Virus record (IMG/VR): IMGVR_UViG_3300043468_001158
DNA from: a virus
Taxonomy: Duplodnaviria; Caudoviricetes
Length of the DNA: 64,000 nucleotides
Direction: 5' to 3' (one strand)
The notes under the pieces: model-generated
Database searches by the model: none
Told to the model about the DNA's origin: nothing
What the model saw: only the letters and a program-made list of their open reading frames with translations
Made by a program: the position numbers and the translations under genes
In this document: positions 10,301 through 64,000 of the stretch, piece after piece
Numbering within the stretch: the first letter of the stretch is position 1
Layout: each line of letters opens with the position of its first letter

Positions 10301-13300
10301 CCTAAAGTATCACATGAAATGACTGATTGAGTATGGAATGTTACATTAGCAGTTGGAGCCGGTTTGCTCACAATAGTATATGCATCAGCTTTTGGAAGAG
10401 CAATCATTTCACCAATAGTAGTAACCTCTAAACGATGAGTTCTTAACTCAGGTTCAAACTTCAATGACGTATTCAAGTCGCTCAGTGTGTACCAACGGTT
10501 TTCGTCAGTAGGCAAGATTGAAATGTAAGTTAACGGAGCTTGAACGACTAAGCTATCAGGTTGTTCAAAGAATAGCCTAGTATGTTTAAGAGTGCAATCA
10601 TTTGCATTCAACTTAAGTTCAGGATAAGTTGGAGTTCTTGCATCACCATACTCTGCTACTTTATAAGCCCAAAACTCATCAAGTTTTGCATGTTCAAATT
10701 TGACAGAGTTCAAGAATGCATCAATGCTGTACTGAGTGCCTTTTGCATTGACCATTGCTCTCCAGAAATTAAACTCTGAACGTTCGTTTGTTCTAAGTAA
10801 ATCAAAGTATCCTTTCTTACTAAAGCCTAATAACGAAAGAGCATGTTTAGTTGTATCATCGTTATCATATACTTTATCTGCATTGTAATAATGACCTACA
10901 TCATCGATGCTGCCTGCCAAGTTCTTCTTGAAGTCATGTCTATCATTCAGGAAGAACCCACCAAAAGTTGGTCTAAAAGTATGATTTCTTCTAGCTTTAG
11001 CATCAATCAATAGTTTCTCAACTGATAAGTTCAAGAATGGGTCATAGAACAAACCTTCTGGAAATGGTGAAGAAGTAATGTAGTTCTCAAATAAGATAAG
11101 ATGTTCATACTCGTCAATAGTTATATGAGACCCGAATATTGGAACATAGCCCGTGATTTCAGTATGGTCATCAAAACGAATGACCGTTGAACCATGTGGC
11201 TGAATGATGTCTCCAGTTACATCATAGATGAACTGTGAAGTTAGAATGTCATCAAAGCGACGTTGAACAAAAGAAGCTGGCAAACCTCTATTTGTAAACA
11301 ACCAAAACTTTTCCATGAATGGATTGACACCAAAACCTTTACCTGGAACTGTTCCTTTATACAACCCATCAATGAAGCGCTCTATTTCAAGTTGCCAATT
11401 CTCAAGTCTTCCGGAGATAGGGTCTTGAGCCGGATTATCACCTTGACCAAAGGCAAAGCCTTGGTCTTCAGTATACATTGCATAAGCATGTAAGAAATTG
11501 ACTACGTTTTGAATACCTGTGATATTGATTGGCAAATTAATTGATACTATACTTGTTACTTCTAAATAGTTTCTCCATTCATCGACTGAATGAGCTTTAG
11601 AAAAAGCATTGAAAGTTTCAAATGTTCCACTTGTATTTAGAGTATAAGTATCTATTTGTGGATGACGAGAGAAATAGTTCTCTATTCTAAACTTCCAATT
11701 AGAACCTTGATTTGGACCGGGTTTATATATATTATTTCCATTTGAATCTTGACCTAACCAAATCTTGTCTAATCCAATTTCAATTACTTGAACACGAAGT
11801 GCTTGAAGCCAAAGGTTCTTAGCAAGAGTGCTCTTATTCATGAATAGTCGATATGACGGGTCAGGAATATTGCGATAAGCATCATTTGATAAACGAAGAT
11901 TACCTTGTTCAATTAAAGTTCCTGAACGATATGCAAGTTGAGTTTTCCAATTTCTTAGTAACTGAACATTCTTAGAGACTGATGAATCCATTGCATTATA
12001 CGCTAAGAATTGTGTATAAAGTTGATTTAGTCCTTTATATGTAACTTTAGTTGCAGGAACAAAATTTGATGTTCCAGTTCCATTAGTAAGAAGAGTAACT
12101 TCAAACTTATCTCCTATAATCAATGGTCTCCCATTCTCAACTACCTCAAAGTTGAATGCAATATCAGCACCATTAGTAAAAGACGTTCCTTTATGTAAAA
12201 TGATAATAGTTTCATCTTTAGTTGCAAGAATAAGCTGAAGGTCTAATTGTTGATAAACTACTTCTAATGTAAAGTTTCTTGTGCCTCCAACTGATACATT
12301 GCTAAACACAATTTCAGGAATTCCTAATAAAGTATTACTTGTATGAACAGGTTCTCCATGTAACGAGAACTTATAATGGGTTAGTAAATCACCTGTCATT
12401 CTGTCTAATTCAAGTTCATTTGAAGCAAATGTTTGGAAACCCCAATTAGTTTCAAGAAACTTAACAGGATTTATCTTATAACTTGAACGTGCTTGTGAAT
12501 ATGCAAAGGCAATAGAATGTCGCCAAATAAGTTCAACAGGACCTTCATCTCCAAACAAGTAAGAGTCACGAACTCCTAACGGTTCAGCTGTCAAAAGAGC
12601 ATAAGAGCTTATCGGTGAAGAAAGAGAGACATAAGGTGGCAATAAAGTATCAGTATTAGGATTAACACAAAGTTTGATACCAGGATATAATGCTTGAACA
12701 TCAGTCCATAATGATGGATTCCATATTCTACACTCGTTGATAATAAAAGCATCAACATCAATAGTCAATGGAACTGAAGTTACTATCCAGAAAGACCCAG
12801 CATAAGGACCTTTATCAATCATAAAGAAGTCATATAAAGAAATATCACCTGAAGTATCATATCCAGCAACACGAGATAAAGTCAATCCATTCCAAACATA
12901 TAATCCGTTCTCAGAAGCATCTGTTTGAGATGTCAATAGAACAGTATCACCATTACCTAAACCAAAAGATGAAATACTAAGAGGCGGTACAATTGTCAAT
13001 AAATCAATGTTAGTAGTTGATACAATGCTTACACTTTGTTTTAAAATTCCTTGTGCTAATAATGATAATGGATAATCTGCTTCATATGCCCATTTACCTG
13101 GAATCGATGAAGGTTGTGCAAGTATAGCTTCTGCATAAGTGTCATGTCCAAAGAACTTCCAAGGTGTTGCATCAGGACGAGTAAGACCTGGAGCAATTCC
13201 AGCGAATGTCGCAAAATAAGCTTCATATAGTTTATGCCATCTTGCAATAGATGGTAGGGTTCCAACTGTTGCCAAATGATAGTTCCATGAAAACGGGTCA

Positions 13301-16300
13301 TTGATGTTATACACAGAACCTAATGGGTCATACGAGTTTTGAATAGCAAACTTAGCTAATTCATATTGCAAATTGTAAGGGTCTTGATAGACTGGGTTAG
13401 AAATATCCCATCTAAGAGTATTAACAGAAGAACCTAAAGTAGAAGCATCATAGAGTTTTTGTTCTGCTTTTAGAACTAATGCATTCACTATATCTTGGAT
13501 ATTGACAACAACCCAATTCAGCGGAGTTGAAGTAATATCCCATACTAAAGTTGTTGCATTGTAAAGTCTAAGTTCATTCGTAATTCGATTATACCAAGAC
13601 TTACCACTTGGGTTCAACACACCAGATACATCAGGTGCAACTTCACCTTCATAATCAACTGAAAGATACTTAAGCTCTGTACCATTATACCATAATTGAC
13701 CTCTATAAGGTTGAGTTGGCATCGAGACCGAAACTGTTCCTCGCGTAATAGTTCCATCATATCGTAATACTTCAGCTAAAGCAATGTTATGCGACAATGT
13801 TGAGTCTGCTGTAAAGATTGGAGATTGGTGTCCATCATGATGAATGGTAACATGTGCATCAAGTTCAAAGTCATATACTTGTAATGGTTGAACTGCATTC
13901 ATCATTCCCATCATTGGTAAAGTGATTGGCCAATATGTAATAGGCGCAGTTGTTGAACTGAACGCACCAACTGCAGCACCTTTTAGAGCATAATCTGCTT
14001 CATACATACTAAACAAGTTATCAAGACTTCCGTCAGCTGACATACCTAGTGCTTCGGGTAAAGAAGTCAAAATGTATTCAGGAATAGAGTTTAGTGCATT
14101 TCCATATTGAAGTTCTGCAAAATCTAACAACGAAATCGGAGTCAAATCTTGTTGGTTCAATAATGAGAAGAATAAGTTATGAGCTCCATTCAATGTTTTG
14201 ATTTTGCCACCAAAACCTGGGTTAGCATTTTGCAATAATCGATAGTTATTAGAACCAAATGAACTTCCAAAGAATTCAGGTTGATTTGCTATAGTGTTGA
14301 TAAAGTGATTAGACAAATCGCCAAATAGAATTTCAGAACGGTTTTCACGTTCAGGGTTCATCATCAATTGGGGAGGCGTAAGCCAGCATCCTGGATGATT
14401 GACATCATTGTAGATTGTACCTGTTTTTGGCATGCCATCTGCATCACTTATTGCATAACGAGGTTCTTCGTACGATGATGCAACACGGAATATCATATTA
14501 TCGCTTTGGGCACTAGTAAATGTTACTGAAGATGGAACAGGTGCATCAAAGTTGAATGCGATGAAATCACTATGATAAGTTGAACCGATTATCGCATTAG
14601 GTAATTGACCCGCTTTTGAACCTCTTACTTCATATGTTGTTGGGTTCTTATAGGTTAGTGTCCAAGTTTCGTTATTTGTATAGATAGAAGCTTCGATACC
14701 AGAGATGACAATGAATACCTCACTCTGGCTATATGTTCCATTAGCTTTTGGATGAATGAAGAACGAGATGTCCCCTGATGAACTTGTATAAGGAGTTCCT
14801 GCTACTGCATCGGGTGTCTGAATACCTGCTCTTGAACCTGTGACAGTAAAAGTAATCCCATCACTTTGTGGAACAATAGTCCATGTTTGACTATCAAGAA
14901 TTGGATTGATTTCAAGCGAAGTTAGATTGCCCGTACCACTTCTATCAATGATGGCTTCATTTACATAAGGTTCAACCGGTTGTTCTGATGAACGCCAAAT
15001 GGTTCTGATAACGCCATCCTGTTTGAATGCAAGCATTCTTCCATCGCTATCAGGGGTTTTGAGTCCTTGAGCAAAGTAAAAGTTACCCGTCTTATCTGCT
15101 TTGACACGACGTTGAAGCACAGCATCAAAATCTTCATTAGGGTCTTCGACATAGTAAAAGATTGAAGAAGTCCATGGAGCTTTAGTTCCATCAAGAGGCC
15201 AATATAAGTTGAACAGCGGAGGCTGATTGAACCTTGACTTGACTTGACCTGGAACAAGTTCAAGACCTTCATCATACTCAATGATTGGTCTTGTTGCGCG
15301 TTGAACTTCACCACTAGGATTTAGTCCAAATAGATGTAAATCTTTGCCATGAACCCAATAGTTAGAAGTTTGCCAATCAGAAAGTGGTTCTAGGTTAGCA
15401 TCCTCAGTATAAGTTTCTGCGTCTAAAGATTTGAACATCTTGCCATGATTAGTCGTTCCACTCTTTACATATACTTCTATTCCATTATTAGAGTAAGAAC
15501 CTTCTGTATCATATGTGCGAACCCAATTACCAGCAGAGACTAAGTAGATACCATTCTCACTTGATACCGCTTGGTTCTTGACTAATACTCTCATACCTTC
15601 AGTAAGAGTTACTCCATCTATAGAAGTAAAGGATAAAGTTCCTCTTGTTCCTGATAAGACTCCTGTTCCAATTCCGGTAAAACTTATTTGCGCAGGTAAA
15701 GTTGAAAGATGTTCAACTTGAATAGTAAACATATCTCCACTAACAAAAGGATTAGTTCCAACTTCAATAGTGAAAGCTAAAGGTTTAGAACCGCCTCCGC
15801 CTACATAAGTATAAGTTGAACCGCTAAAAGATATTGACTCAGGAATTGCATCAATAGAACCAACAATAGTAAATGACGTCGGTCCAGTAAAAGTTATAGT
15901 CCAAACTTGATTGAGTTTACCTGTTCCATTTAGAGCTTCAAGCGGGTTAGTTGTTGCTAATAAGACTGGAAGTTTCTGTTTACTTGATAGAGAAGGTTTA
16001 GCAATAGTATAGTATTCAGGTTTCTTTAGAGGGTTCCAACTAATATTTTCATAAGGTAAAGAAGATTGAACCCAAAAGTAACTTGAGTAATTTGCAAACT
16101 TGTCAATGTCAGTAGGTGGTGCAAAATTGAAAGCTTTTGATGACATCCAAGAACTTACTGTTGATAAGTCAATTCCAGAGATTTCTGCTTTGTTCAATAA
16201 GTCCGCAAATGACAGGAAATATTCTTCAGTTCCAACTTTAGTAGCTATCATTGGAACAAATTGGTTGAAAGCACGTTCAATACTTGATTGTGTTACCCAA

Positions 16301-16485
16301 GGTCGGGTTTCTTTAGCGTTCGGAAAATATCTGCCGATTAGTCCGTATAGTTTGACAGACTCTTCGTGTGTCAAACTTTTGTCAAACAAATCTGATAAGA
16401 GAGCGGTATTGACTGGGTTCTTGATGCTATTTGGAAGTAATGAAGTTAGACTTCTAAACGGTTTTGAGTAATCAGATGTTGACAT
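7306..16485 (-). CDS. Very large baseplate wedge/structural protein (3059 aa)
   Basis: Uninterrupted ORF directly downstream of gp6, with late promoter CATAAATAG (TAAATA at 16527-16532). Two RVLVKNQ/VLLTSQ-x-ENG(I/L)Y fibre-like modules. The gp7-like role is inferred from position. Confidence 0.6.
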   Translation of the reverse strand: MSTSDYSKPFRSLTSLLPNSIKNPVNTALLSDLFDKSLTHEESVKLYGLIGRYFPNAKETRPWVTQSSIERAFNQFVPMIATKVGTEEYFLSFADLLNKAEISGIDLSTVSSWMSSKAFNFAPPTDIDKFANYSSYFWVQSSLPYENISWNPLKKPEYYTIAKPSLSSKQKLPVLLATTNPLEALNGTGKLNQVWTITFTGPTSFTIVGSIDAIPESISFSGSTYTYVGGGGSKPLAFTIEVGTNPFVSGDMFTIQVEHLSTLPAQISFTGIGTGVLSGTRGTLSFTSIDGVTLTEGMRVLVKNQAVSSENGIYLVSAGNWVRTYDTEGSYSNNGIEVYVKSGTTNHGKMFKSLDAETYTEDANLEPLSDWQTSNYWVHGKDLHLFGLNPSGEVQRATRPIIEYDEGLELVPGQVKSRFNQPPLFNLYWPLDGTKAPWTSSIFYYVEDPNEDFDAVLQRRVKADKTGNFYFAQGLKTPDSDGRMLAFKQDGVIRTIWRSSEQPVEPYVNEAIIDRSGTGNLTSLEINPILDSQTWTIVPQSDGITFTVTGSRAGIQTPDAVAGTPYTSSSGDISFFIHPKANGTYSQSEVFIVISGIEASIYTNNETWTLTYKNPTTYEVRGSKAGQLPNAIIGSTYHSDFIAFNFDAPVPSSVTFTSAQSDNMIFRVASSYEEPRYAISDADGMPKTGTIYNDVNHPGCWLTPPQLMMNPERENRSEILFGDLSNHFINTIANQPEFFGSSFGSNNYRLLQNANPGFGGKIKTLNGAHNLFFSLLNQQDLTPISLLDFAELQYGNALNSIPEYILTSLPEALGMSADGSLDNLFSMYEADYALKGAAVGAFSSTTAPITYWPITLPMMGMMNAVQPLQVYDFELDAHVTIHHDGHQSPIFTADSTLSHNIALAEVLRYDGTITRGTVSVSMPTQPYRGQLWYNGTELKYLSVDYEGEVAPDVSGVLNPSGKSWYNRITNELRLYNATTLVWDITSTPLNWVVVNIQDIVNALVLKAEQKLYDASTLGSSVNTLRWDISNPVYQDPYNLQYELAKFAIQNSYDPLGSVYNINDPFSWNYHLATVGTLPSIARWHKLYEAYFATFAGIAPGLTRPDATPWKFFGHDTYAEAILAQPSSIPGKWAYEADYPLSLLAQGILKQSVSIVSTTNIDLLTIVPPLSISSFGLGNGDTVLLTSQTDASENGLYVWNGLTLSRVAGYDTSGDISLYDFFMIDKGPYAGSFWIVTSVPLTIDVDAFIINECRIWNPSLWTDVQALYPGIKLCVNPNTDTLLPPYVSLSSPISSYALLTAEPLGVRDSYLFGDEGPVELIWRHSIAFAYSQARSSYKINPVKFLETNWGFQTFASNELELDRMTGDLLTHYKFSLHGEPVHTSNTLLGIPEIVFSNVSVGGTRNFTLEVVYQQLDLQLILATKDETIIILHKGTSFTNGADIAFNFEVVENGRPLIIGDKFEVTLLTNGTGTSNFVPATKVTYKGLNQLYTQFLAYNAMDSSVSKNVQLLRNWKTQLAYRSGTLIEQGNLRLSNDAYRNIPDPSYRLFMNKSTLAKNLWLQALRVQVIEIGLDKIWLGQDSNGNNIYKPGPNQGSNWKFRIENYFSRHPQIDTYTLNTSGTFETFNAFSKAHSVDEWRNYLEVTSIVSINLPINITGIQNVVNFLHAYAMYTEDQGFAFGQGDNPAQDPISGRLENWQLEIERFIDGLYKGTVPGKGFGVNPFMEKFWLFTNRGLPASFVQRRFDDILTSQFIYDVTGDIIQPHGSTVIRFDDHTEITGYVPIFGSHITIDEYEHLILFENYITSSPFPEGLFYDPFLNLSVEKLLIDAKARRNHTFRPTFGGFFLNDRHDFKKNLAGSIDDVGHYYNADKVYDNDDTTKHALSLLGFSKKGYFDLLRTNERSEFNFWRAMVNAKGTQYSIDAFLNSVKFEHAKLDEFWAYKVAEYGDARTPTYPELKLNANDCTLKHTRLFFEQPDSLVVQAPLTYISILPTDENRWYTLSDLNTSLKFEPELRTHRLEVTTIGEMIALPKADAYTIVSKPAPTANVTFHTQSVISCDTLGTYEFELQVPAKPKFSPIKLFDYVDRALIEDITTWHPAFDNHTAIAMEVINVVSEKDPAFYNYSTLTVKNPNFDPQKSWGDREVGRTWWDKTLLEYVPYHDKQIFPTFEERLGRWGSMAEYSSINVYEWVKSSIAPSEYDARSAIDQLSADVALEDKKTGKAARKQSYKRTRTWEARPIAWSYVPTPPEAQDVQLFKAGTTRLTLNSPGVGETFVSLEKGRFAQYGLVPGMHFSGFLGGKPYGEAILNGPIAFTLSDGYHSGDMHVSAGDGNYFDVIQFVWSDNKNYKGAAIGHIEFEWSQVGSTYYIRAIEQASGGSLSVTQPLYDYSGQVGGSYEIDFVQLGIKMIATTAVATMTGAEISVALQQVLSPDVGLFNLEIKEVAPVTVLIQFPHSILDNVLPINLPVSYDNKLTVTGINAFSEVTFVKNPTASVGTYSVTGELNTTNDTYYLKLIQATPSGSSLVVSSLAIDTLTSVALAIQPLVETFSFNLGHITINVNVHPDYFASGVDAQQVIDELGTIGAMVVIGYDASTGSIGIENSTSTVLDEYGWIGYNVPTQEILDNDLKYPHNSWTPVYGDYVEVPSVRQVIDEIVAYEKEPLVLNDGTTVEKFNPVWGDWILLQQEVIRKFGSGNTLDLQVTSSNRIADNTLRLYLNGISQPRTFYSTNGTLISTTQAIPHGHEVVAIMSAYEPTSDELAFDPDVSDDPSIQTQYKSDYQYVIRPSRDSSGNITGDTYYFWVKDKTVPVGNKQLTCQQSAQLLREGPSTYLTFQELFDGAYHGITIAGLNMMVNKDNTYKLRFTRDFSLRDNPQDLDLKNSHTEWTLIRPQQDMKIPLTLWNKLVDSAAGTNLAGQAIPALNKVLYDERHGTRTRYGFRDDQVLADRSLIIASLTNSILNPKTSVYLNGINTTATINGLDLSQSSTWFVTPASTRQVLDYIWRHALPQHINELFFEVLNDALANNYEFTDIFKTSRLSVHSIITVTPETIVNNADVYF

Positions 16486-44798: not shown

Positions 44799-46346
44799 TT
44801 ACCCATCTGACAGTTCTAATTGATATTTTAGTTGTCCTGCATCCGAAATAGAATACCATCCTAGTGAGTCCCAATAATCTTTAGTGATAATATCATGTCC
44901 TAAATGAGCAGGTCTTCTAAATCCCCATCGATGTTTTCTTTCAGTAAAGTTAGTAAAGAATACGCCAATCTTAGTTTCACCTACTAATGAAAAGCCCAAG
45001 GTTTGATATACATTTTTATTATAATCAGTCCATCGCAAATCTGCCCAAGAAATAATTTTCTTTGTTGGATTATTTTTTATAAAACATGATAATAATTTCC
45101 CTGCACCACCAATAATCTGATAATCACTATGAGTTGCATAACGTAATAACTCCCACGTATTACCATCATCAATTTGGTTCATCATTATTCGAGGTCTGCA
45201 AAATGTCATTACTGCTACTAAATCAATACCAGTGAATAATCCAATTTGCACTTTAGATTTTGCTGAACCTTGAATATGATATTGATTTAGAAATAACGTA
45301 GCTTCATTTGATGAAATAATTTTAGCTTGTAATTTACGTGCAAAAAGTTTCGTTGAAACATTACAACCAATAATGTTGATGATTTTATTTTTTACTAAAT
45401 CTTTTTTTGACAACCATTCATCTTCAAAAATTTGAACTAATCTAATTCCACGTTCTTTACATAATTCATATTTTTTCCGATGCTTATACCTATCATAACC
45501 AGCTTTACTTGAATGCCAATATAAGCCATGATATTCGATAGCAATGTTTTTGCTTGGAATATAAATGTCAAGTTCTAAGTTATTCGGAAGAATACTTTTA
45601 TTATGTCTAACAATTTCAACATATTGAGACACAAAGTCAGCCAATTCTACTTCAGCTTTACTTTCTCCTTTTAGAGGAGGGAAGCAAGTATGACATAAAG
45701 TATTAGCAAATTGATGCTTTTTCAAAGTAACTAATGCAACATTCGAAACGTTATTACATGTACTGCATTTGATACTAAATCTAAAATTGCCTGATATGAA
45801 ATGTTCACTATTTTCTAAAACTTCACCCCATTCAATTTGAAGATTAGTTTCTAGTTTTTTAGCGGTTTCTTCTTTCCTTCGCTTAGCAATTTTTTCTAGG
45901 TGAGGTATTTGAAACTCCATTCTTTCATCAGAAAGTGGAGGTTTTGGATTGTTATGATAATATTCATTTAGCGCAATACTCAGTTTTTCACGATATTCAT
46001 CTGAACGTTCATGAGTTCTACCAGTATTGAAATGCTCTCCATTTTCTGCAGCTTCTTTAGATCGTTGTCCAATACCATTCTTTTGTTTATCAGAAACCCT
46101 ACCTTCTTGCCAAAGTTTTTTTGTAGTTTCAACAAGTTTAGCTTTAGTTTTAGTTTCTTCTGAATGACCTTTACCTTTTAGGGGATGATTGTCACCAGAC
46201 TTTTTTGCTTTTAGCTCTGGTGAATATCCAAATGGAGCATCATTTCCAAACTGTTCAAAGTATTCTTCTTTAGAAAAACCATGAGCTTTTAGATGTTGCT
46301 TATCAATTTTAGATAGCTTTCGGTTACATATTGGACATTCAATCAT
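44799..46346 (-). mobile_element. Hef-like homing endonuclease (Zn finger, NUMOD-like region, PD-(D/E)XK/DUF559-like domain)
   Basis: CPIC...HLKAHG; ELDIYIPSKNIAIEYHGLYWHS...IRLVQIFEDEW; C-terminal WELLRYAT...IISWADLRW. Confidence 0.8.
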
Positions 46347-56249: not shown

Positions 56250-56432
56250 ATGACTGCTACGTCAGAGCAATTAGGTATCGATGATGCTCAACGTCATCGA
56301 TATCAACTTCTGATAAAAGCAGAAATACTAACAGAGAATGGTGAATATCATCCAAGATGGTTTTCACAAGAAACAATAGAACGAGATAAACAACATAGAA
56401 ATCAAACTCAGAAGAGGAATAACGAAAGATGA
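56250..56432 (+). CDS. Hypothetical protein (60 aa)
   Basis: ATGA overlap with the next gene. Confidence 0.55.
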   Translation: MTATSEQLGIDDAQRHRYQLLIKAEILTENGEYHPRWFSQETIERDKQHRNQTQKRNNER

Positions 56433-56875
56433 CTTCATTACTACAACAAATCAAAGACCGTTCGCTTGAAGCTCGCAAGGCTAAAGCGCCTGAAGCAGTG
56501 TATCTAACAACTTTGTTAGGCGAAGCTTCTCGTCCTGGTAAAGACGATGGCAGTCGTGAAAGTACTGACGAAGAAGTACTGAAAGTTTTGACTAAGTTCA
56601 AGACCGGTGCTCTTGAAATGCTTGATGTCTTCGAACGAGTTGAAGATGTTAATAAGATTATCGTGACCGAACGCGAACTTGCAATCTTGGACAGTTATCT
56701 GCCAAAGCAAATGTCAAACATCGAGCTTGAAAACATCATTGCCAAGTTTGTCGTTGATGCAGATAAGACACCATCAATTGGTATGATTATGGCATACTTG
56801 AAGTCTAACTATGCTGGTCAGTATGATGGTAAAGCTGCTTCAGTATTTGCTAAGTCTGCGATTGAGGAACTGTAG
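56429..56875 (+). CDS. GatB/YqeY-domain protein
   Basis: LEARKAK...LTTLLGE...DEEV...ELAILDSYLPKQMS...GMIMAYLK...YDGK. Confidence 0.85.
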   Translation: MTSLLQQIKDRSLEARKAKAPEAVYLTTLLGEASRPGKDDGSRESTDEEVLKVLTKFKTGALEMLDVFERVEDVNKIIVTERELAILDSYLPKQMSNIELENIIAKFVVDADKTPSIGMIMAYLKSNYAGQYDGKAASVFAKSAIEEL

Positions 56876-56887
56876 GAAATGTAGGAA

Positions 56888-57088
56888 ATGAAAATCAATC
56901 TCCAATTATTTCTTATCGTACTTCTGTTGTTTAGCATTATGCCATTGCTAAAATACTTAGACATTTCTAGACAAACCTCAGAAAATGTGATACAATGCAT
57001 TGGAGATTACAGCTTTTCGCAAGACTTTCTGGATTTTTGGCGACCATATGAAGACGAAAATCCAGAACATATCAGATGTAATGACTGA
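56888..57088 (+). CDS. Small membrane-anchored protein (66 aa)
   Basis: N-terminal TM LFLIVLLLFSIMPLL; stop codon overlaps the 5-prime end of the tRNA-like RNA. Confidence 0.55.
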   Translation: MKINLQLFLIVLLLFSIMPLLKYLDISRQTSENVIQCIGDYSFSQDFLDFWRPYEDENPEHIRCND

Positions 57089-57207
57089 ATAGCTTAATCG
57101 GCAGAGCATCTCAGCTAGGGCAGGGGGTTAGGTTCGATTCCTAACAGATAAGTGGCGCCTGTAAGTCCGCATGAGGTAGGTAGTGGGTTCGAACCCCCTT
57201 TCAGTCA
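57083..57207 (+). ncRNA. tRNA-like RNA whose anticodon loop is replaced by a 58-nt domain with a second T-arm
   Basis: GACTGAA/TTCAGTC acceptor stem; D-arm GCTT-AATCGGCA-GAGC; stem TCTCA/TGAGG; T-loop TTCGAAC; insert contains GTTAGG-TTCGATT-CCTAAC; no encoded CCA. Confidence 0.8.
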
Positions 57208-59863: not shown

Positions 59864-60628
59864 ATGACAAAACTCCACGAAATCCTAGCTGTTGAAAAAA
59901 CTCGTAACACTGCAGTTGCAAAATTACTGGATGACACTAGCAACAAATTCCGTAAAGACCAGTTTTTTGCAGGTCATATCAAAACATTGAAAATGTTGGT
60001 TGATTCTCCGGAAAATGCTGCAATTGAAGAAGCTGCTCGTGACGAAAAAGCTTTGCCAACTACAGTCCCTGAAACTCTTGAATATGTGTTTGACTTCTGG
60101 GCAAAAGCCGAAGACATCACTTTTGCAAAAAATCGTACTAACCAAATTGCCAATGCTGACCTGTTGTTCCGTGGACAAGTATTAGTACCTAATGTACCGG
60201 TTGATGAATTGCTTGGTCTTGAAACTCGTCTGCAAACATTGCGTAATGTGATGGATACGGTTCCAACTTTGGATGCGTCTAAAGAATGGAAAGTAACTGA
60301 CAATGGTCGTAAAGGCGAGTTCGTAACGACAGGTGAAGAAGTCACCAGCAAAACTGAAAAGACAATGACTGCTGTGGTCTTGTATGAAGCAACTGACAAA
60401 CATCCAGCTCAAATTGAAAAAGTGACTGCCGATAAAGTTGTTGGAACATTCAAACGTCGTTTGATTTCTGGTGCTGCTACTTCCAAGCAAAAAGCAGATG
60501 CAATTGCAATTCTTGATGAATTGTTGGTTGAAACCAAACAAGCAAGACAGCGTGCAAACTCTGTTGAAGTCATCAACGAAAAAATCGGTAACACGATTGC
60601 AAACTTGATTTTGGATGTCTTCAAATAA
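59864..60628 (+). CDS. Conserved 254-aa helical protein (recalled as DUF7873-like), upstream of the tRNA-mimic RNA
   Basis: GAGGT RBS; MTKLHEILAVEK, NVPVDELLGLETRL, EATDKHPAQIEKV, FKRRLISGA and ARQRANSVEV match a family I recall from phages and actinobacteria (unverified). Confidence 0.65.
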   Translation: MTKLHEILAVEKTRNTAVAKLLDDTSNKFRKDQFFAGHIKTLKMLVDSPENAAIEEAARDEKALPTTVPETLEYVFDFWAKAEDITFAKNRTNQIANADLLFRGQVLVPNVPVDELLGLETRLQTLRNVMDTVPTLDASKEWKVTDNGRKGEFVTTGEEVTSKTEKTMTAVVLYEATDKHPAQIEKVTADKVVGTFKRRLISGAATSKQKADAIAILDELLVETKQARQRANSVEVINEKIGNTIANLILDVFK

Positions 60629-60632
60629 ACCG

Positions 60633-60661
60633 TTTACATTGACTAAAAAGCATGATAGAAT
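60633..60661 (+). promoter_or_regulatory. Early promoter TTTACA-N17-TAGAAT
   Basis: AACCG-prefixed; positioned to transcribe the leader hairpin, the 119-aa ORF and the downstream RNA. Confidence 0.75.
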
Positions 60662-60671
60662 AGATACAAAT

Positions 60672-60742
60672 AAAAGTTCAACCGGAGCTAATGGATTATC
60701 CCGTTAAGATACAAACCCATAAGCGTTTTTAGTTGTACTTTT
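60672..60742 (+). ncRNA. Structured leader hairpin sharing motifs with the 61690-61758 insertion
   Basis: AAAAGTTCAAC/GTTGTACTTTT outer stem; GCTAATGG/CCATAAGC inner stem; exact 13-mer AGCGTTTTTAGTT also at 61699-61711. Confidence 0.6.
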
Positions 60743-60776
60743 ACCAAATTGTGAAATAAAGTGGAGAGAAAATTCG

Positions 60777-61136
60777 ATGTACAGACCTGAAGGTATAGGC
60801 CAAGTTATTTGGAAGTTTGCAAAATCTTCTAAAGAAGTTACAATGGAAAATCTAAAAGAAGTCATATCAGAATATTCTGGTATTGTACCTGATATGCTTT
60901 CTGATTATTCTGTGTATGAAGTAGTATTTGAAACTGTTGGTCAAGCAATAGAAGCTGGAGTAATCAGAGCTCATATGTTTAGGGATTTTGCAAATGCAAT
61001 TGTTCCATCTCCATTTTTTAGAAATTATCAAGCAATAGAAGTTCTAACTGAATTGACTATGATTCAGTGTATGATAAATATGATTAGATATGTCCAGGTC
61101 ATAGACGGTGATACCATTTTGATTGACCTGGATTAG
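60777..61136 (+). CDS. Hypothetical protein (119 aa) between the RNA elements
   Basis: GGAG RBS; open frame. Confidence 0.65.
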   Translation: MYRPEGIGQVIWKFAKSSKEVTMENLKEVISEYSGIVPDMLSDYSVYEVVFETVGQAIEAGVIRAHMFRDFANAIVPSPFFRNYQAIEVLTELTMIQCMINMIRYVQVIDGDTILIDLD

Positions 61137-61180
61137 AAAACAAACGAGCCAAACTTATCTTTATTATTGTAGTAAATCGT

Positions 61181-61304
61181 TTTAGAATTGATGTGGTGGT
61201 TCGAGTCCATCCTTCCCCACAAAGTGTTTTATCAACATAGAATATTTTGTGGGGAAGTAGAAGAACAGGCATATTCTGCTCTTATGTGAGTATTCAGTTC
61301 TATT
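61181..61304 (+). ncRNA. Circularly permuted tRNA-like module 1
   Basis: T-arm GGTGG-TTCGAGT-CCATC (61195-61211); CTTCCCC (61212-61218) pairs with GGGGAAG (61251-61257) across a capping hairpin; TAGAATTGA pairs with TCAGTTCTA. Confidence 0.7.
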
Positions 61305-61393
61305 ACAAAGTTATCTTCTTCGTATCGCTCAGCATACGTGACTAGGAAGGCATCTTAACAATTGCAAATAGGCACAATCTTATCATTCTATTA

Positions 61394-61502
61394 TGATAAA
61401 CCGAAAGTCGTGGGTTCGAATCCCATTTCCACCTCCACTTGGTATTGAATAGCTCGTCAGTATCAAGTGGGGTGGAGTAACTCAGTGGTTAGAGTGTCGG
61501 TC
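61394..61502 (+). ncRNA. Circularly permuted tRNA-like module 2 (rejoined halves read as a tRNA with GAU anticodon)
   Basis: 3-prime half TGATAA-ACCGA-AAGTC-GTGGG-TTCGAAT-CCCAT-TTCCACC-T-CCA precedes 5-prime half GGTGGAG-TA-ACTC-AGTGGTTA-GAGT-G-TCGGT-C. Confidence 0.88.
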
Positions 61503-61657
61503 AAATATAACTCAAACTCATCGTCAAACATGTGGGTTATTTGCAAAAAGATGTAAGACAAAGGTTCTTGATGACTGGTGGTTAGACAGGTATGTTCTAA
61601 TCGCTAGTCATTCTATAAAAAAGTATTAGAATAAATAGTATTTTTCTATAGAATAAT

Positions 61658-61793
61658 GTGAATGATAGCTCAGTTGGTAGAGCAGCCGCCATCAAAATAG
61701 CGTTTTTAGTTTTTGTTCAATTCACGTTGAACCGTTGAAAATGATTATCCAAATCCAAGCAGCATGTCATAGGTTCGAATCCTATTCATTCAC
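61658..61793 (+). ncRNA. tRNA-like module 3 with a 69-nt insertion in the anticodon loop
   Basis: (G)TGAATGA/TCATTCA(C) acceptor stem; GCTC-AGTTGGTA-GAGC D-arm; GCCGC/GCAGC stem; ATAGG-TTCGAAT-CCTAT T-arm; 3-prime end TTCA rather than CCA; TAAATA at 61632-61637. Confidence 0.82.
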
Positions 61794-61807
61794 TTCAAAT
61801 TATACGT

Positions 61808-61893
61808 GGCATCGTGGGGGAATTAGGTATACCCAGCAGACTTAAAATCTGCCAGCTTCGGCTATCCCGGTTCAAGTCCGGGCGATGCTACCA
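61808..61893 (+). tRNA. tRNA-Leu(TAA)
   Basis: GGCATCG/CGATGCT acceptor stem, GCAGA-CTTAAAA-TCTGC anticodon arm, long variable arm, CCCGG-TTCAAGT-CCGGG T-arm, ACCA. Confidence 0.95.
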
Positions 61894-61917
61894 ATAAATG
61901 CGAATAAACTAATGAAT

Positions 61918-62397
61918 TTATTCAATACTAACAGCTGAAGAACCGGCTTTTTTCATGTTTTCTAACTCCATTTTTAATCGTTCTATTTCTAAAGCGTAAA
62001 GTTGTGTGCAATCAATTCTCGCAGGTTCTTCTCCAATAGGAATAACAATTCGAGCATAAACTCCAATGTCATTACCGGCGATATTATTAGAAGATTCTTG
62101 ATTAGAATAATAATTATTGATAACTTGTGGGTCTGAACTATTAGATGCATTAGTATTTTTTGTTCCGGTAATACCAAAATCTAATGTAGGGCCAATATGA
62201 GTTCCTTGATTACATGTTGTTCCATCACGTCCTCTAACAGAATCTCCACCAATTGAGTTTTGAGGAGTCATTGGCATCATTGGTGAGCCATAACCATTAT
62301 TTGAAACTATAAGTAATAGTATTATTGAGAAACTTTTGTGGTAACTATAGAGCATGTTCTTAACCTCATTGATTGAGAATCTTTTAGAACCGCACAA
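61918..62397 (-). CDS. Secreted protein with C-terminal coiled coil, third gene of the pilin-like cassette
   Basis: Signal-like IILLLIVSNNGYG (true start probably MLYSYHK); DSVRGRDGTTC...LDFGITG...IGVYARIVIPI...RIDCTQLYALEIERLKMEL. Confidence 0.65.
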   Translation of the reverse strand: MCGSKRFSINEVKNMLYSYHKSFSIILLLIVSNNGYGSPMMPMTPQNSIGGDSVRGRDGTTCNQGTHIGPTLDFGITGTKNTNASNSSDPQVINNYYSNQESSNNIAGNDIGVYARIVIPIGEEPARIDCTQLYALEIERLKMELENMKKAGSSAVSIE

Positions 62398-62687
62398 AGA
62401 TAATATTTTGAATTATCTTTTATGATAATATCAATTGGAATAATTCGTTCTTGCTCTTTACCTAAAACAAATTCAGAAATAATTTTGTCTTCATTTTTTT
62501 GTAAATCAATTACTTTTACAAATTCTATAGAAGCAGTTTCAAAGTGACCATAAATTTTAAATTGAATCGGAGTTTTAGTACCAATAACTCCGGTTGTAGT
62601 TATTTTGTTTGGAAAAACACTTACTGCAAATACTGATTGGATTGATATAAAAAAGGTAATAAATAAGTTTATTAGATGCTGTTTCAT
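62322..62687 (-). CDS. Small PapD-like/Ig-fold chaperone-like secreted protein
   Basis: Signal peptide then VSVFP; beta-strand pattern with FVLGKEQERII and a C-terminal Cys pair. Confidence 0.5.
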   Translation of the reverse strand: MKQHLINLFITFFISIQSVFAVSVFPNKITTTGVIGTKTPIQFKIYGHFETASIEFVKVIDLQKNEDKIISEFVLGKEQERIIPIDIIIKDNSKYYLCAVLKDSQSMRLRTCSIVTTKVSQ

Positions 62688-62786
62688 AATATGTCATTTA
62701 TAATTATAAATCCAGTAATAAGTTGAGAGAAGGACCTGGATTAAATCTTTTCGGGTTATAAATTCCCTATCCCCCAACTTATTATT

Positions 62787-63299
62787 TTACATTGTGCAAG
62801 ATACTGGTATTTTTAATTGATATGTTCCAGCAGGGAAAGCAGAACCATCTTGACGCGTAACATTAGCATTTACGGCAATGTTGTATGTTCCGCCATCAAA
62901 GAAGAATGTATTAGACGCAGCATCTGGTCCAAATTGACTTACAGCAACGCCAAATAAATCAGAACCATTACCATTTGCTGAAGTAGTTACAATCGCGTCA
63001 GATAAAACTCCATTAGGACCAATAATAATTGGCGCTCCTAATGGTAAAGAATATCCATTCACATTAGCACGTAAGCTTACTGAAGCTGGAGAACCACCTG
63101 AATTTTCAGAAGATAATTGAGTTTGGTCTGCTGAAGTAGTAATTGTTCCATCGACAAAAGTCATAAGATTACAAGATGGAGCTACAGTTCCATTAAATTT
63201 TAAGTCTCCTGATGTTGGTCCGACTGCTGCAGGTAAAATAGCTGCAGAAGCTGAAAAACTAATTAAAAGACTGAGTGGTAAAAGTAATATTCCTTTCAT
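62787..63299 (-). CDS. Fimbrial (pilin-like) subunit
   Basis: Signal peptide ending FSASA; LKFNGTVAPSC; C-terminal FPAGTYQLKIPVSC; TATAAATA on the minus strand at 63357-63364 and 63391-63398. Confidence 0.65.
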   Translation of the reverse strand: MKGILLLPLSLLISFSASAAILPAAVGPTSGDLKFNGTVAPSCNLMTFVDGTITTSADQTQLSSENSGGSPASVSLRANVNGYSLPLGAPIIIGPNGVLSDAIVTTSANGNGSDLFGVAVSQFGPDAASNTFFFDGGTYNIAVNANVTRQDGSAFPAGTYQLKIPVSCTM

Positions 63300-63440
63300 T
63301 TTTATTTCCTTTTAAGTTGTTGATAATAAACTCATCATAATAATCTCAGCAAATGCTATTTATATAAATTTGCATTAGGTCATTTCAGGTTATTTATATA
63401 AGTTGGAAGTGACCAGTCAAATTATAATTTGTATAAACTA

Positions 63441-64000
63441 TCAAAAGGAATAAACAAAGTTGGTCGCAATCATCCACCAATTTTCATACGCACCTGGGTC
63501 TGCATTATAGTTTTCAGGTAATGCCCATCTTCCACCTTGTATCTTATGTGCTTCAAGTCCAATCATCCAATTATCACGATGATAGTTCAAACCAAAATTG
63601 ATGTCACCAGTATGAATTGTCGTATAAGGTGGTGTTGGTAAATTTTTTAGTTGCTGAGAGTGGTAAAAATTATAATTTGCATATCCAGATACATGTTCTG
63701 TTATTTCATAACGAGCACTAAACGAATATCCACCTGACCATTGACCCGGTGAATCCCATTCATTGAAGAAGGTTTTGACACGAATATCTTCAGCAGACAA
63801 AGTCAAATCTCGCCACGTGTATTCCAAACTATTCACAAAGATGTTCAACTTCTGGTCTTGATTGACATCATTTGGAAAGATAATTGCCATAGTTTGACTA
63901 GTCTTATTTCCTAAATTGATACGTGCCCATGAGGATTTGAAAACCAGGTCATCATAAGTATATTTCAATGTGGCTAATCGGTAATCCCCAAAACTTGTAT
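63441..64000 (-). CDS. Outer-membrane beta-barrel (porin-like) protein, partial (start lies beyond the window)
   Basis: Frame stays open from 64000 through the track start at 63968; alternating aromatic strands; C-terminal MIATNFVYSF ending in Phe. Confidence 0.7.
   Translation of the reverse strand, partial: TSFGDYRLATLKYTYDDLVFKSSWARINLGNKTSQTMAIIFPNDVNQDQKLNIFVNSLEYTWRDLTLSAEDIRVKTFFNEWDSPGQWSGGYSFSARYEITEHVSGYANYNFYHSQQLKNLPTPPYTTIHTGDINFGLNYHRDNWMIGLEAHKIQGGRWALPENYNADPGAYENWWMIATNFVYSF

What the first reader, a model, noticed from the sequence alone, without database searches (positions are those of the whole stretch)
61394..61502. Circularly permuted tRNA whose halves rejoin into a 76-nt cloverleaf with a GAU anticodon
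Seen: the 3-prime half (61394-61437, with encoded CCA) precedes the 5-prime half (61471-61502). Joining C61502 to T61394 gives GGTGGAG TA ACTC AGTGGTTA GAGT G TCGGT CTGATAA ACCGA AAGTC GTGGG TTCGAAT CCCAT TTCCACC T CCA, with all four stems paired. The linker is an 11-bp hairpin (CCACTTGGTAT/GTATCAAGTGG) that pairs the CCA itself. Established: processed permuted tRNA genes are known from some algae and archaea. Inference: either it is matured by anticodon-loop ligation plus RNase P/Z-type cuts, or it stays a mimic. The mimic reading is favoured by U73 and G4-C69 (E. coli tRNA-Ile uses A73 and C4-G69), and by TTATCAT (61380-61386), which can sequester ATGATAA.
Basis: partly seen in the sequence, partly recalled or inferred. 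Interest (0 to 1): 0.85.

Follow-up and report, generated by a model that had tools for sequence, protein, structure and literature searches.

The report
Processed tRNA-mimic RNA beside DUF7873
The "back-to-front tRNA" is real, but it is not a tRNA gene awaiting re-joining: it is the tRNA-shaped head of a conserved, apparently undescribed phage non-coding RNA that nearly always follows one unknown-function gene (DUF7873), and environmental RNA data suggest its capping linker is cut out exactly at the tRNA-like CCA end.

Summary
Observation confirmed. The halves at 61394-61437 and 61471-61502 re-join into a cloverleaf that ARAGORN calls tRNA-Ile(GAU), and the 33-nt linker is a hairpin that pairs the CCA.

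Interpretation partly supported. The window is a T4-like lake phage. The module (T arm, closed 7-bp acceptor with UCCA, D arm, 5-bp anticodon-like stem) recurs a median 172 nt after the DUF7873 gene in 64 of 74 related loci, including cultured phages phiRSL1 and FBKp24. Covariation is strong (86.5% of cells paired against 35-52% in slid controls). No way of splitting the loop gives a conserved U33/R37, and the "GAU" lies in a hairpin that covaries in the nearest relatives. So it is a non-decoding mimic with the YrlA/Y-RNA design.

It is not a proven YrlA. It scores 25 bits against a cut-off of 69, it has no CGAA motif, and Ro60 is absent from two complete genomes that carry it.

New datum: one metatranscriptome contig joins A61437 directly to G61471, an abundant contig from another study ends at 61436, and two contigs end at 61563. 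This fits RNase P-type acceptor processing. No anticodon-side joint was seen.

The scan has found this family before on other DNA. Interest is moderate to high.

The parts
59864..60628 (+). DUF7873 gene (254 aa), the invariant upstream neighbour of the RNA
   Evidence: Pfam PF25283, E 1.4e-66. A module follows it in 64 of 74 loci. The AF2 model has pLDDT 87 and no informative structural match.
60633..60661 (+). Promoter-like site TTTACA-17-TAGAAT (TG-extended), the likely start of the RNA operon
   Evidence: Best promoter match in 60500-62000, 10 of 12. The same CCGTTTAC-type box precedes other early genes (read). Inference only.
61183..61302 (+). Element A: a second permuted tRNA-like module. 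T arm 61195-61211, acceptor 3' strand 61212-61218, A73, no CCA, 32-nt capping hairpin, acceptor 5' strand 61251-57, D arm, extra hairpin, 9-bp closing stem.
   Evidence: Fold z -5.6. Model R1 gives 34.6 bits at 61186-61269. Homologs lie in L001, L002 and phiRSL1.
61321..61338 (+). Conserved inter-module hairpin CGTAT..ATACG carrying a TATCG motif
   Evidence: Nearly identical in L001 and similar in L002.
61350..61371 (+). 5' strand of the outer (terminal) helix of element B
   Evidence: It pairs with 61537-61554 in the MFE and centroid folds. Equivalent helices occur in L001 and L002.
61380..61399 (+).
   Evidence: Fold. There is a compensatory change in L001 (TTCTCATT/AATGAGAA), and hairpins sit at the same place in L002 and FBKp24. 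H1 is clade-specific, not family-wide: 11 of 48 modules against 27% of shuffles.
61400..61437 (+). 3' half of module B: AC-like strand, V loop, T arm, acceptor 3' strand, U73, CCA
   Evidence: An RNA contig of high depth ends at 61436 in run X17.
61438..61470 (+). Linker (acceptor-capping hairpin), missing from one RNA contig
   Evidence: The X16 contig (depth 161) joins 61437 to 61471 with no shared letters at the joint. The X15 contig retains the linker.
61471..61501 (+). 5' half of module B: acceptor 5' strand, U8 A9, D arm with GG, G26, AC-like strand
61502..61536 (+). 3'-side internal loop carrying the motif CATCGTCAAAC (61519-61529)
   Evidence: ATCGT/TATCG/TCGTT words are enriched about fourfold in family flanks. 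A similar UAGCGU motif occurs in T4 rnaC.
61537..61563 (+). 3' strand of the outer helix (61537-61554) and the RNA end at 61563
   Evidence: Fold. X15 and X16 contigs stop at 61563 and run into Illumina adapter.
61659..61793 (+). tRNA-shaped module 3 in normal order, with a 68-nt insert in the anticodon loop
   Evidence: Rfam tRNA 45.3 bits with a 68-nt insertion. Fold.
61808..61893 (+). Ordinary tRNA-Leu(UAA) closing the RNA operon
   Evidence: ARAGORN and Rfam, 51.9 bits.
61933..61948 (+). Only intrinsic-terminator-like site of the unit

Best explanation
Element B is the tRNA-shaped head of a non-decoding structured RNA, a tRNA mimic built on the Y-RNA (YrlA) plan. It belongs to a widespread phage (and, per earlier scan notes, bacterial) RNA family genetically tied to the DUF7873 protein. 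It is transcribed from the promoter at 60633 within a roughly 1.3-kb unit: leader, small ORF, element A, element B, a long tRNA-like module, tRNA-Leu, terminator. The RNA folds into a genuine tRNA elbow (T arm, D arm with GG, covarying 15:48 pair) with a 7-bp acceptor stem. In place of an anticodon loop, a 5-bp stem continues through an internal loop into a long helix formed by the RNA's two flanks. The acceptor stem is first capped by a 33-nt hairpin. That hairpin is then removed exactly between A76 of the encoded UCCA and G+1, most simply by host RNase P cutting 5' of G61471 and 3' trimming back to CCA. The two ends then stay base-paired as a two-piece RNA or are re-ligated. The mature RNA ends near 61563. 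The exposed tRNA-like head on its helical handle then serves as a protein-binding platform, most likely for DUF7873, and for Ro60 in the relatives that encode it. It would act on some tRNA-related process such as RNA repair or quality control, or countering host attack on tRNAs. What is shown: the structure, conservation and covariation, the lack of an anticodon loop, the linkage to DUF7873, and RNA contigs with a CCA|G+1 joint and ends at 61436 and 61563. What is inferred: the enzymes, the two-piece or ligated state, the protein partner and the biological role.
For: The re-joined halves form a tRNA. Rfam YrlA matches the same topology weakly in the window (25 bits), L001 (29 bits) and L002 (34.5 bits over the full model). 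A python screen found 48 distinct modules. Model R1 finds about 77 primary copies, all on the DUF7873 strand. Covariation: 86.5% paired against 35-52% slid, score 0.66 against 0.14 or less. A14 is present in 47/48, GG in 48/48, and 15:48 is G:C or A:U in 45/48. No conserved U33/R37 loop appears at any split. The flanks pair. NCCA follows the acceptor in 18/18 short-linker and 15/30 long-linker members. Where it is not CCA, the bases before +1 change to match. The module follows DUF7873 in 64/74 loci at a median of 172 nt, including phiRSL1 (78 bits) and FBKp24 (71 bits). RNA contigs show a 61437|61471 joint in X16, a contig covering 61259-61436 at depth 379 against 27 in X17 (another study), and adapter after 61563 in X15 and X16. 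Precedent: M. smegmatis YrlA has a 7-bp acceptor, is cut by RNase P and receives CCA (PMC4201824).
Against: The RNA evidence is from assembled contigs of four runs in two studies, not raw reads. The joint is in one contig of one run, while the sister sample shows the unspliced form. A DNA strain variant lacking the linker, or reverse-transcriptase template switching, cannot be excluded. In the precursor the CCA is paired, which in textbook substrates disfavours RNase P. No binding datum exists for DUF7873, and its fold gave no functional clue. A promoter and a 119-aa ORF separate DUF7873 from the RNA in this window. The flank-helix signal by duplex energy is modest family-wide (mean z -1.3).
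Confidence: 0.75

Rival explanations
1. It is a canonical Y RNA (YrlA family) whose working partner is a Ro60/Rsr protein, encoded outside the 64-kb window or by the host. DUF7873 is only a syntenic neighbour.
For: There are weak YrlA hits in three homologs. A TROVE gene lies 3.6 kb (L002) and about 0.7 kb (L061) downstream on the same strand, and elsewhere in G001. Tandem Y RNAs beside Ro60 are known in phages (PMC4201824, PMC12135203).
Against: The score is far below Rfam's cut-off (25 against 69). The CGAA/GNCGAA Ro60 motif is absent from the window flanks and not enriched in the family (9 observed, 13.7 expected). There is no TROVE gene in the window, in seven other viral contigs, or in the complete genomes of phiRSL1 and FBKp24, which carry high-scoring modules.
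Confidence: 0.12
2. It is a true circularly permuted tRNA-Ile(GAU) gene. Leader and trailer are cut and ligated in the anticodon loop, the linker is removed by RNase P and a 3' nuclease, and a decoding tRNA results.
For: The halves re-join to a clean cloverleaf. The encoded UCCA and 7-bp acceptor are conserved. Linker removal at CCA|G+1 is seen in RNA. RtcB ligase is encoded by phiRSL1 and FBKp24. Insert-bearing tRNAs occur in the same clusters.
Against: No conserved 7-nt loop with U33/R37 appears at any split (best 21%). TGATAA is replaced by non-loop-like sequence in L002 and shifted in L001. The GAU lies in a covarying hairpin. The flanks form a long helix with an asymmetric loop, not a bulge-helix-bulge. 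No 61502|61394 joint appears in four RNA runs, although contigs cannot prove absence. Bacteria lack the splicing endonuclease this pathway needs (established knowledge). RtcB is absent from G001, G003 and G004.
Confidence: 0.04
3. The modules are cis-acting processing punctuation. They are tRNA-shaped RNase P sites that cut the polycistronic transcript and stabilise the neighbouring mRNA or tRNAs, with no trans function of their own.
For: They sit in an operon with an ORF and tRNAs. The ends map to tRNA-like sites.
Against: Punctuation does not need a permuted order, a conserved D arm, a covarying 15:48 pair, a long terminal helix or conserved flank motifs. The segment 61259-61436 is about 14 times deeper than the upstream mRNA in X17, as for a stable RNA product.
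Confidence: 0.05
4. It is a relic: scrambled tRNA gene fragments left by recombination or integration events, with no function.
For: tRNA clusters in phages are recombination-prone. Strain differences lie close by (61564-61649 and 61680-61697).
Against: It is conserved in about 77 loci at protein identities down to about 35%, with compensatory changes in every helix, and it is expressed in RNA runs.
Confidence: 0.01

Closest known systems
YrlA-type bacterial and phage Y RNAs (Rfam RF02553; Chen et al. 2014, PMC4201824), especially M. smegmatis YrlA
   Same: Same order of parts: stem, V loop, T arm, closed acceptor-like hairpin, D arm, stem, then a terminal helix formed by the RNA ends. Same tRNA tertiary signature, including the covarying 15:48 pair. 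Often two RNAs in tandem. M. smegmatis YrlA has a 7-bp acceptor, is cut by RNase P and gains CCA. Some relatives of this phage have a Ro60 gene just downstream.
   Different: It scores well below the family cut-off. No CGAA Ro60-binding motif is present. Ro60 is absent from complete genomes that carry it, and the constant neighbour is DUF7873. NCCA is genome-encoded and conserved. The handle is longer, with other motifs (TATCGT/TAGCGT, GGGRAACC). This clade has an extra 5' hairpin.
Circularly permuted tRNA genes of Cyanidioschyzon merolae, some green algae and Thermofilum
   Same: The 3' half is encoded before the 5' half, the halves are joined by a short linker that is removed at the tRNA ends, and the flanks pair.
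   Different: Those yield decoding tRNAs through a bulge-helix-bulge cut and ligation at the permutation point. Here there is no conserved anticodon loop, no such motif, no junction contig, and a bacterial-virus context that lacks that endonuclease.
Two-piece (permuted) tmRNA genes of alpha- and beta-proteobacteria and cyanobacteria (Rfam RF04321, RF01850)
   Same: A permuted gene in which the T arm, acceptor 3' strand and CCA precede an excised intervening segment and the acceptor 5' strand. The mature RNA is two base-paired pieces. There are weak model hits on element A.
   Different: No G3:U70 pair (0 of 48), no tag reading frame or pseudoknots, a D arm is present, and scores are far below the cut-offs.
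Phage T4 stable RNAs rnaC and rnaD (species 1 and 2 RNAs, function unknown)
   Same: They are encoded in the tRNA cluster of a T4-type phage. rnaC has a T arm, paired ends and two UAGCGU motifs like those in this family's flanks.
   Different: They do not match the permuted-module model (16 bits or less), and T4 was not among the DUF7873 hits.

Membership tests
YrlA (Rfam RF02553) | tRNA-like module in the order T arm, acceptor-like stem-loop, D arm, enclosed by a stem | tested here: met
YrlA (Rfam RF02553) | Score at or above Rfam's gathering threshold (69 bits) | tested here: not met
   Window 25 bits, L001 29 bits, L002 34.5 bits.
YrlA (Rfam RF02553) | Ro60-binding helix with the GNCGAA(N0-1)G / CGAA motif on the 5' strand | tested here: not met
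   There is no CGAA in 61300-61400 or 61502-61600. In 73 family members, CGAA occurs in 9 of the 5' flanks against 13.7 expected.
YrlA (Rfam RF02553) | Encoded within about 4 kb of, and on the same strand as, a TROVE/Ro60 gene | tested here: not met
   No TROVE gene anywhere in the 64-kb window, of which only 2.5 kb lies downstream. The feature is met in L002 and L061. TROVE is absent from the complete phiRSL1 and FBKp24 genomes.
YrlA (Rfam RF02553) | Bound by Ro60/Rsr | not testable with these tools
   Needs immunoprecipitation or EMSA.
YrlA (Rfam RF02553) | tRNA tertiary nucleotides, including a covarying Levitt pair 15:48 | tested here: met
   G:C in 36, A:U in 9 of 48; A14 in 47/48; GG in 48/48.
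Circularly permuted tRNA gene giving a decoding tRNA | 3' half upstream of the 5' half, with complementary acceptor and anticodon-stem strands | tested here: met
Circularly permuted tRNA gene giving a decoding tRNA | A 7-nt anticodon loop with U33 and R37 can be reconstituted, and this is conserved among homologs | tested here: not met
   Best split gives both features in 21% of 34 modules. The window's TGATAA is not conserved in L002.
Circularly permuted tRNA gene giving a decoding tRNA | Bulge-helix-bulge (3-4-3) motif at the leader/trailer junction | tested here: not met
   By inspection of the folds, the flanks form hairpin H1 plus a distant 17-bp helix (window), or an asymmetric loop of 3-6 and 9-13 nt followed by a long helix (family). 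No formal BHB search was run.
Circularly permuted tRNA gene giving a decoding tRNA | Junction or circular RNA joining the permutation point | tested here: inconclusive
   No 61502|61394 joint in four RNA runs, but these are contigs, which drop rare forms.
Two-piece (permuted) tmRNA | G3:U70 alanine identity pair and a tag-coding piece | tested here: not met
   0 of 48 modules have G3:U70. Rfam tmRNA_permuted scores 19 bits against 47, on element A only.
DUF7873-linked permuted tRNA-mimic RNA (scan-defined, not a published family) | Permuted module on the same strand within about 1.6 kb downstream of a DUF7873 gene | tested here: met
   In the window, DUF7873 ends at 60628, element A is at 61186 and element B at 61400. 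In the family, 64 of 74 loci meet this.

The most novel reading that the evidence does not exclude
The acceptor-capping linker behaves as a protein-spliced intervening sequence. It is cut out exactly at A76 and G+1, and the ends are either covalently re-joined (giving a UCCA-capped tRNA mimic, perhaps by a phage or host RNA ligase) or left as a free, possibly chargeable CCA end on a two-piece RNA. This processed RNA works with DUF7873 as a Ro60-independent ribonucleoprotein that phages use in a tRNA-centred conflict with the host.
Probability: 0.2. Interest if true: 0.85.

Novelty: new variant of a known kind. Interest (0 to 1): 0.6.

Why it matters
Y-RNA-like tRNA mimics are known, but their tRNA-like domain has no established function and they are defined by their Ro60 partner. 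This member belongs to a much broader family that keeps the tRNA-shaped head, keeps an encoded CCA, and travels with a different, uncharacterised protein. It is present in cultured jumbo phages (Ralstonia phiRSL1, Klebsiella FBKp24), where it is unannotated or mis-annotated as a suppressor tRNA. The RNA-contig evidence for precise removal of the linker at CCA|G+1 is, as far as I could find, the first processing datum for this family. It makes the question "what does the tRNA-like head do?" directly testable. It also warns annotators that such loci are neither pseudo-tRNAs nor permuted tRNA genes.

Tried and rejected
- **Own genome:** not held. There was no near match in the phage collection, and only tRNA-Leu matched in distant mode.
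- **Own record:** an exact-pattern scan of viral contigs did not find the window's record.
- **Neighbouring ORFs:** PHROGs and NCBIfam gave nothing for DUF7873, the 119-aa ORF or the downstream minus-strand ORFs.
- **DUF7873 fold:** Foldseek against PDB gave no hit at E 1e-3 or better. AFDB clusters gave only uncharacterised proteins. The VIA wide search gave a best Z of 9.6 to a protein of unknown function at rmsd 7.8. The atlas gave no usable hit. There is no functional lead.
- **T4 rnaC and rnaD:** they do not match the module model.
- **Literature:** No paper contains 'DUF7873'. A search for 'permuted tRNA' plus 'phage' found nothing relevant.
- **Hairpin H1:** it is not a family-wide feature (11 of 48 against 27% of shuffles).
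- **Flank duplex energies:** only modestly better than shuffles (mean z -1.3).
- **ARAGORN with introns allowed:** it gave inconsistent anticodons for the long tRNAs, except L001 tRNA-Leu(UAA).
- **RNA coverage gaps:** no RNA contig covers 61564-61649, and nothing covers 61446-61633 in X17. No conclusion is drawn from these gaps.
- **Integration-scar idea:** prophage att remnants were considered at the start and dropped once the window proved to be a lytic-type T4-like phage and the module proved conserved.

Full report
**What is there**

The order is: the strand ACCGA, a five-base V loop, a T arm, the acceptor 3' strand TTCCACC, U73 and CCA (ending at 61437). Then comes a 33-nt linker, then the acceptor 5' strand GGTGGAG (from 61471), U8 A9, a D arm and the strand TCGGT. 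ARAGORN and Rfam's tRNA model do not see it in genomic order. When the two halves are re-joined in silico, ARAGORN calls a 76-nt tRNA-Ile(gat) with four stems. RNAfold forms the T arm, the 7-bp acceptor, a 14-bp extension in which CCA pairs with the UGG before +1 (U73 bulged), and the hairpin TTATCAT/ATGATAA. It also forms a long helix between 61350-61371 and 61537-61554 (z -5.2).

**Context**

The window is a large T4-like myovirus, with baseplate wedge, portal, major head protein and SbcCD-like nuclease genes. It comes from lake and freshwater metagenomes. No whole genome is held. The element lies in an RNA operon:
- a strong promoter-like site at 60633-60661
- a leader and a 119-aa ORF
- a second permuted module, element A, at 61183-61302 (34.6 bits)
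- element B
- a tRNA-shaped module in normal order with a 68-nt insert (61659-61793)
- an ordinary tRNA-Leu(UAA)
- the only terminator-like site, at 61933-61948

Immediately upstream is a 254-aa DUF7873 gene.

**It is one member of a large family**

Using DUF7873 as bait, I fetched 9 viral and 80 metagenomic loci. A mechanical screen found 48 distinct modules with the same permuted order. A covariance model built from 18 of them then found about 77 primary copies. All are on the DUF7873 strand, and a weaker second copy often lies in tandem.

On the model-based alignment:
- 86.5% of cells form pairs, against 35-52% when partners are slid.
- 24 of 25 pairs show changes on both sides.
- The covariation score is 0.66, against 0.14 or less in the controls.

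Features the screen did not impose are tRNA-like. A14 is present in 47 of 48, GG in the D loop in 48 of 48, and the 15:48 pair is G:C (36) or A:U (9). This is the same covariation that Chen et al. 2014 stress for YrlA.

Among 74 loci with a complete DUF7873 3' end and at least 450 nt downstream, 64 have a high-scoring module within 1.6 kb, at a median of 172 nt. Most of the other ten have weaker, long-linker or upstream copies.

Cultured phages carry it too. Ralstonia phiRSL1 has it in an unannotated gap (78 bits, plus an element A). Klebsiella FBKp24 has it at 71 bits, where the record's 'tRNA-Sup-TTA' feature overlaps it.

**Not a decoding tRNA**

For 34 modules with a perfect 5-bp anticodon-like stem, I built every possible 7-nt loop from the two flanks. 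U33 and R37 occur together in at most 21%. Real tRNAs have both almost always.

The window's TGATAA is part of hairpin H1. In L001 the hairpin reads TTCTCATT/AATGAGAA, which is a compensatory change. L002 and FBKp24 have other hairpins at the same place. H1 is a feature of this clade only.

In more distant members the 5' flank pairs directly with the 3' flank, after an asymmetric internal loop of about 3-6 and 9-13 nt. I saw no bulge-helix-bulge motif. So the architecture is that of a Y RNA with a tRNA-like domain, not that of the algal and archaeal permuted tRNA genes.

**Is it a YrlA?**

Rfam's YrlA model is the only family that matches:
- window: 25 bits, covering the tRNA-like part only
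- L001: 29 bits
- L002: 34.5 bits over the full model

The gathering score is 69.

A TROVE/Ro60 gene lies 3.6 kb downstream on the same strand in L002, about 0.7 kb downstream in L061, and elsewhere in the contig of L001. Against this:
- There is no TROVE gene in the window or in seven other viral contigs.
- There is none in the complete phiRSL1 and FBKp24 genomes.
- The CGAA motif that marks Ro60 sites (PMC4201824; PMC12135203) is absent from the window's flanks and not enriched in the family.

Instead, TATCGT/TAGCGT-type words are enriched about fourfold on both flanks, and a GGGRAACC block recurs further 3'.

I therefore say it works like a YrlA-type mimic but do not file it as a member. 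The constant genetic partner is DUF7873. Its confident model (pLDDT 87) matched only uncharacterised proteins.

**The acceptor end**

NCCA follows the acceptor strand in all 18 members whose linker is 22 nt or shorter. There it sits in a small loop that usually ends in AT before +1. It also follows the acceptor in 15 of 30 long-linker members. In the long class, positions 74-76 pair with the three bases before +1. When they are not CCA, the partner changes to match: CAA/TTG, CTA/TAG, CCC/GGG, CCT/AGG. Both a capped precursor helix and a CCA are thus under selection. No member has G3:U70.

**RNA evidence (assembled contigs only)**

Four metatranscriptome runs from two studies hold the stretch.
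- In X16, a 2.3-kb contig of depth 161 runs 60600-61437 and continues at 61471-61563. It lacks exactly the 33-nt linker and joins the A of CCA to G+1, with no shared letters at the joint. It still contains element A's linker; element A has no CCA.
- In the sister sample X15, the contig is unspliced.
- Both contigs stop at 61563 and run into Illumina adapter. This marks a defined fragment end 9 nt past the outer helix.
- In X17, from another study, a 178-nt contig covers 61259-61436 at depth 379, against 27 and 11.5 for its neighbours. This is a stable species whose 3' end, or a branch point, coincides with the CCA.
- No contig joins 61502 to 61394.

The simplest reading is that host tRNA-end processing acts on the module. 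RNase P would cut 5' of G+1 and trimming would proceed to CCA, as shown experimentally for M. smegmatis YrlA. The joint then reflects either re-ligation or reverse-transcriptase switching across a nicked, base-paired two-piece RNA.

A DNA strain lacking the linker cannot be excluded. However, 14 DNA runs hold all the sampled words of the stretch, and no family member has a linker shorter than 8 nt. The tool allowed only one laying, and of contigs only. Raw reads are the decisive next step.

**Relation to earlier scan notes**

After reaching the DUF7873 linkage independently, I found that the scan had reported the same RNA-protein pairing on other DNA several times. A later check there had remarked on the lack of any transcript or processing datum. 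One search begins to fill that gap. The idea attributed there to Burroughs and Aravind 2016 could not be read.

**Verdict**

The 'anticodon-loop ligation to tRNA-Ile(GAU)' half is not supported. The predicted cuts at the linker are supported. It is a new variant of a known kind: a Y-RNA-like tRNA mimic that is DUF7873-linked, largely Ro60-independent and CCA-bearing, and whose cap is excised.

Noticed in passing
window 57083-57207: A tRNA-shaped RNA (Rfam tRNA, 35 bits) whose anticodon loop is replaced by a 58-nt insert. The insert itself contains a perfect T-arm-like hairpin (GGTTAGGTTCGATTCCTAAC). L001 111-230 is a homolog.
   Followed up: partly
window 61659-61793: A tRNA-shaped module in normal order with a 68-nt insert (Rfam tRNA, 45 bits) carrying AATAGCGTTTTTAG and a GTTCAA/TTGAAC hairpin. 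No clean 7-nt loop can be restored. RNA-run contigs of other strains have 786 other letters between 61680 and 61697, and different sequence upstream of 61650.
   Followed up: partly
L001 9129-9246: A tRNA-Leu(UAA)-like gene with a 33-nt perfect hairpin inserted between anticodon positions 34 and 35. This is the same site as the cyanobacterial tRNA-Leu group I intron, but the insert is far too short to be one.
   Followed up: partly
L100 (phage T4) 6909-7047, minus strand; window 61519-61529, 61697-61710, 60722-60734: T4 rnaC (species 1 RNA, function unknown) has a T arm, paired ends and two GAGUAGCGU motifs. A related UAGCGU/UAUCGU..AAC motif recurs in this window's RNAs and is enriched in the family's flanks, hinting at a shared binding site.
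   Followed up: partly
L097 (Klebsiella phage FBKp24) 5018-5097 against 5060-5153: The record's 'tRNA-OTHER / tRNA-Sup-TTA' feature overlaps the permuted module and is probably a mis-annotation. In phiRSL1 (L096 4882-5197) both modules lie in an unannotated gap.
   Followed up: partly
L098, L099 (phiRSL1 and FBKp24 genomes): Both complete genomes that carry the module but lack Ro60 do encode an RtcB RNA ligase (E 1e-121 or better). RtcB was not found in the contigs of L001, L003 or L007.
   Followed up: partly
window 56429-56875: A YqeY-like protein (PF09424, the GatB/YqeY tRNA-binding-type domain) is encoded just upstream of the first odd tRNA of the cluster.
   Followed up: no
window 61918-63998, minus strand: Four small ORFs on the opposite strand right after the RNA operon, with no Pfam or PHROG function.
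   Followed up: no
window 44799-46346, minus strand: A 515-aa ORF next to the major head gene matches homing/HNH endonuclease PHROGs and, weakly, a Mom-like DNA modification protein.
   Followed up: no
window 7306-16485, minus strand: A single 3059-aa ORF, followed by a 1370-aa ORF, among the tail and baseplate genes.
   Followed up: no
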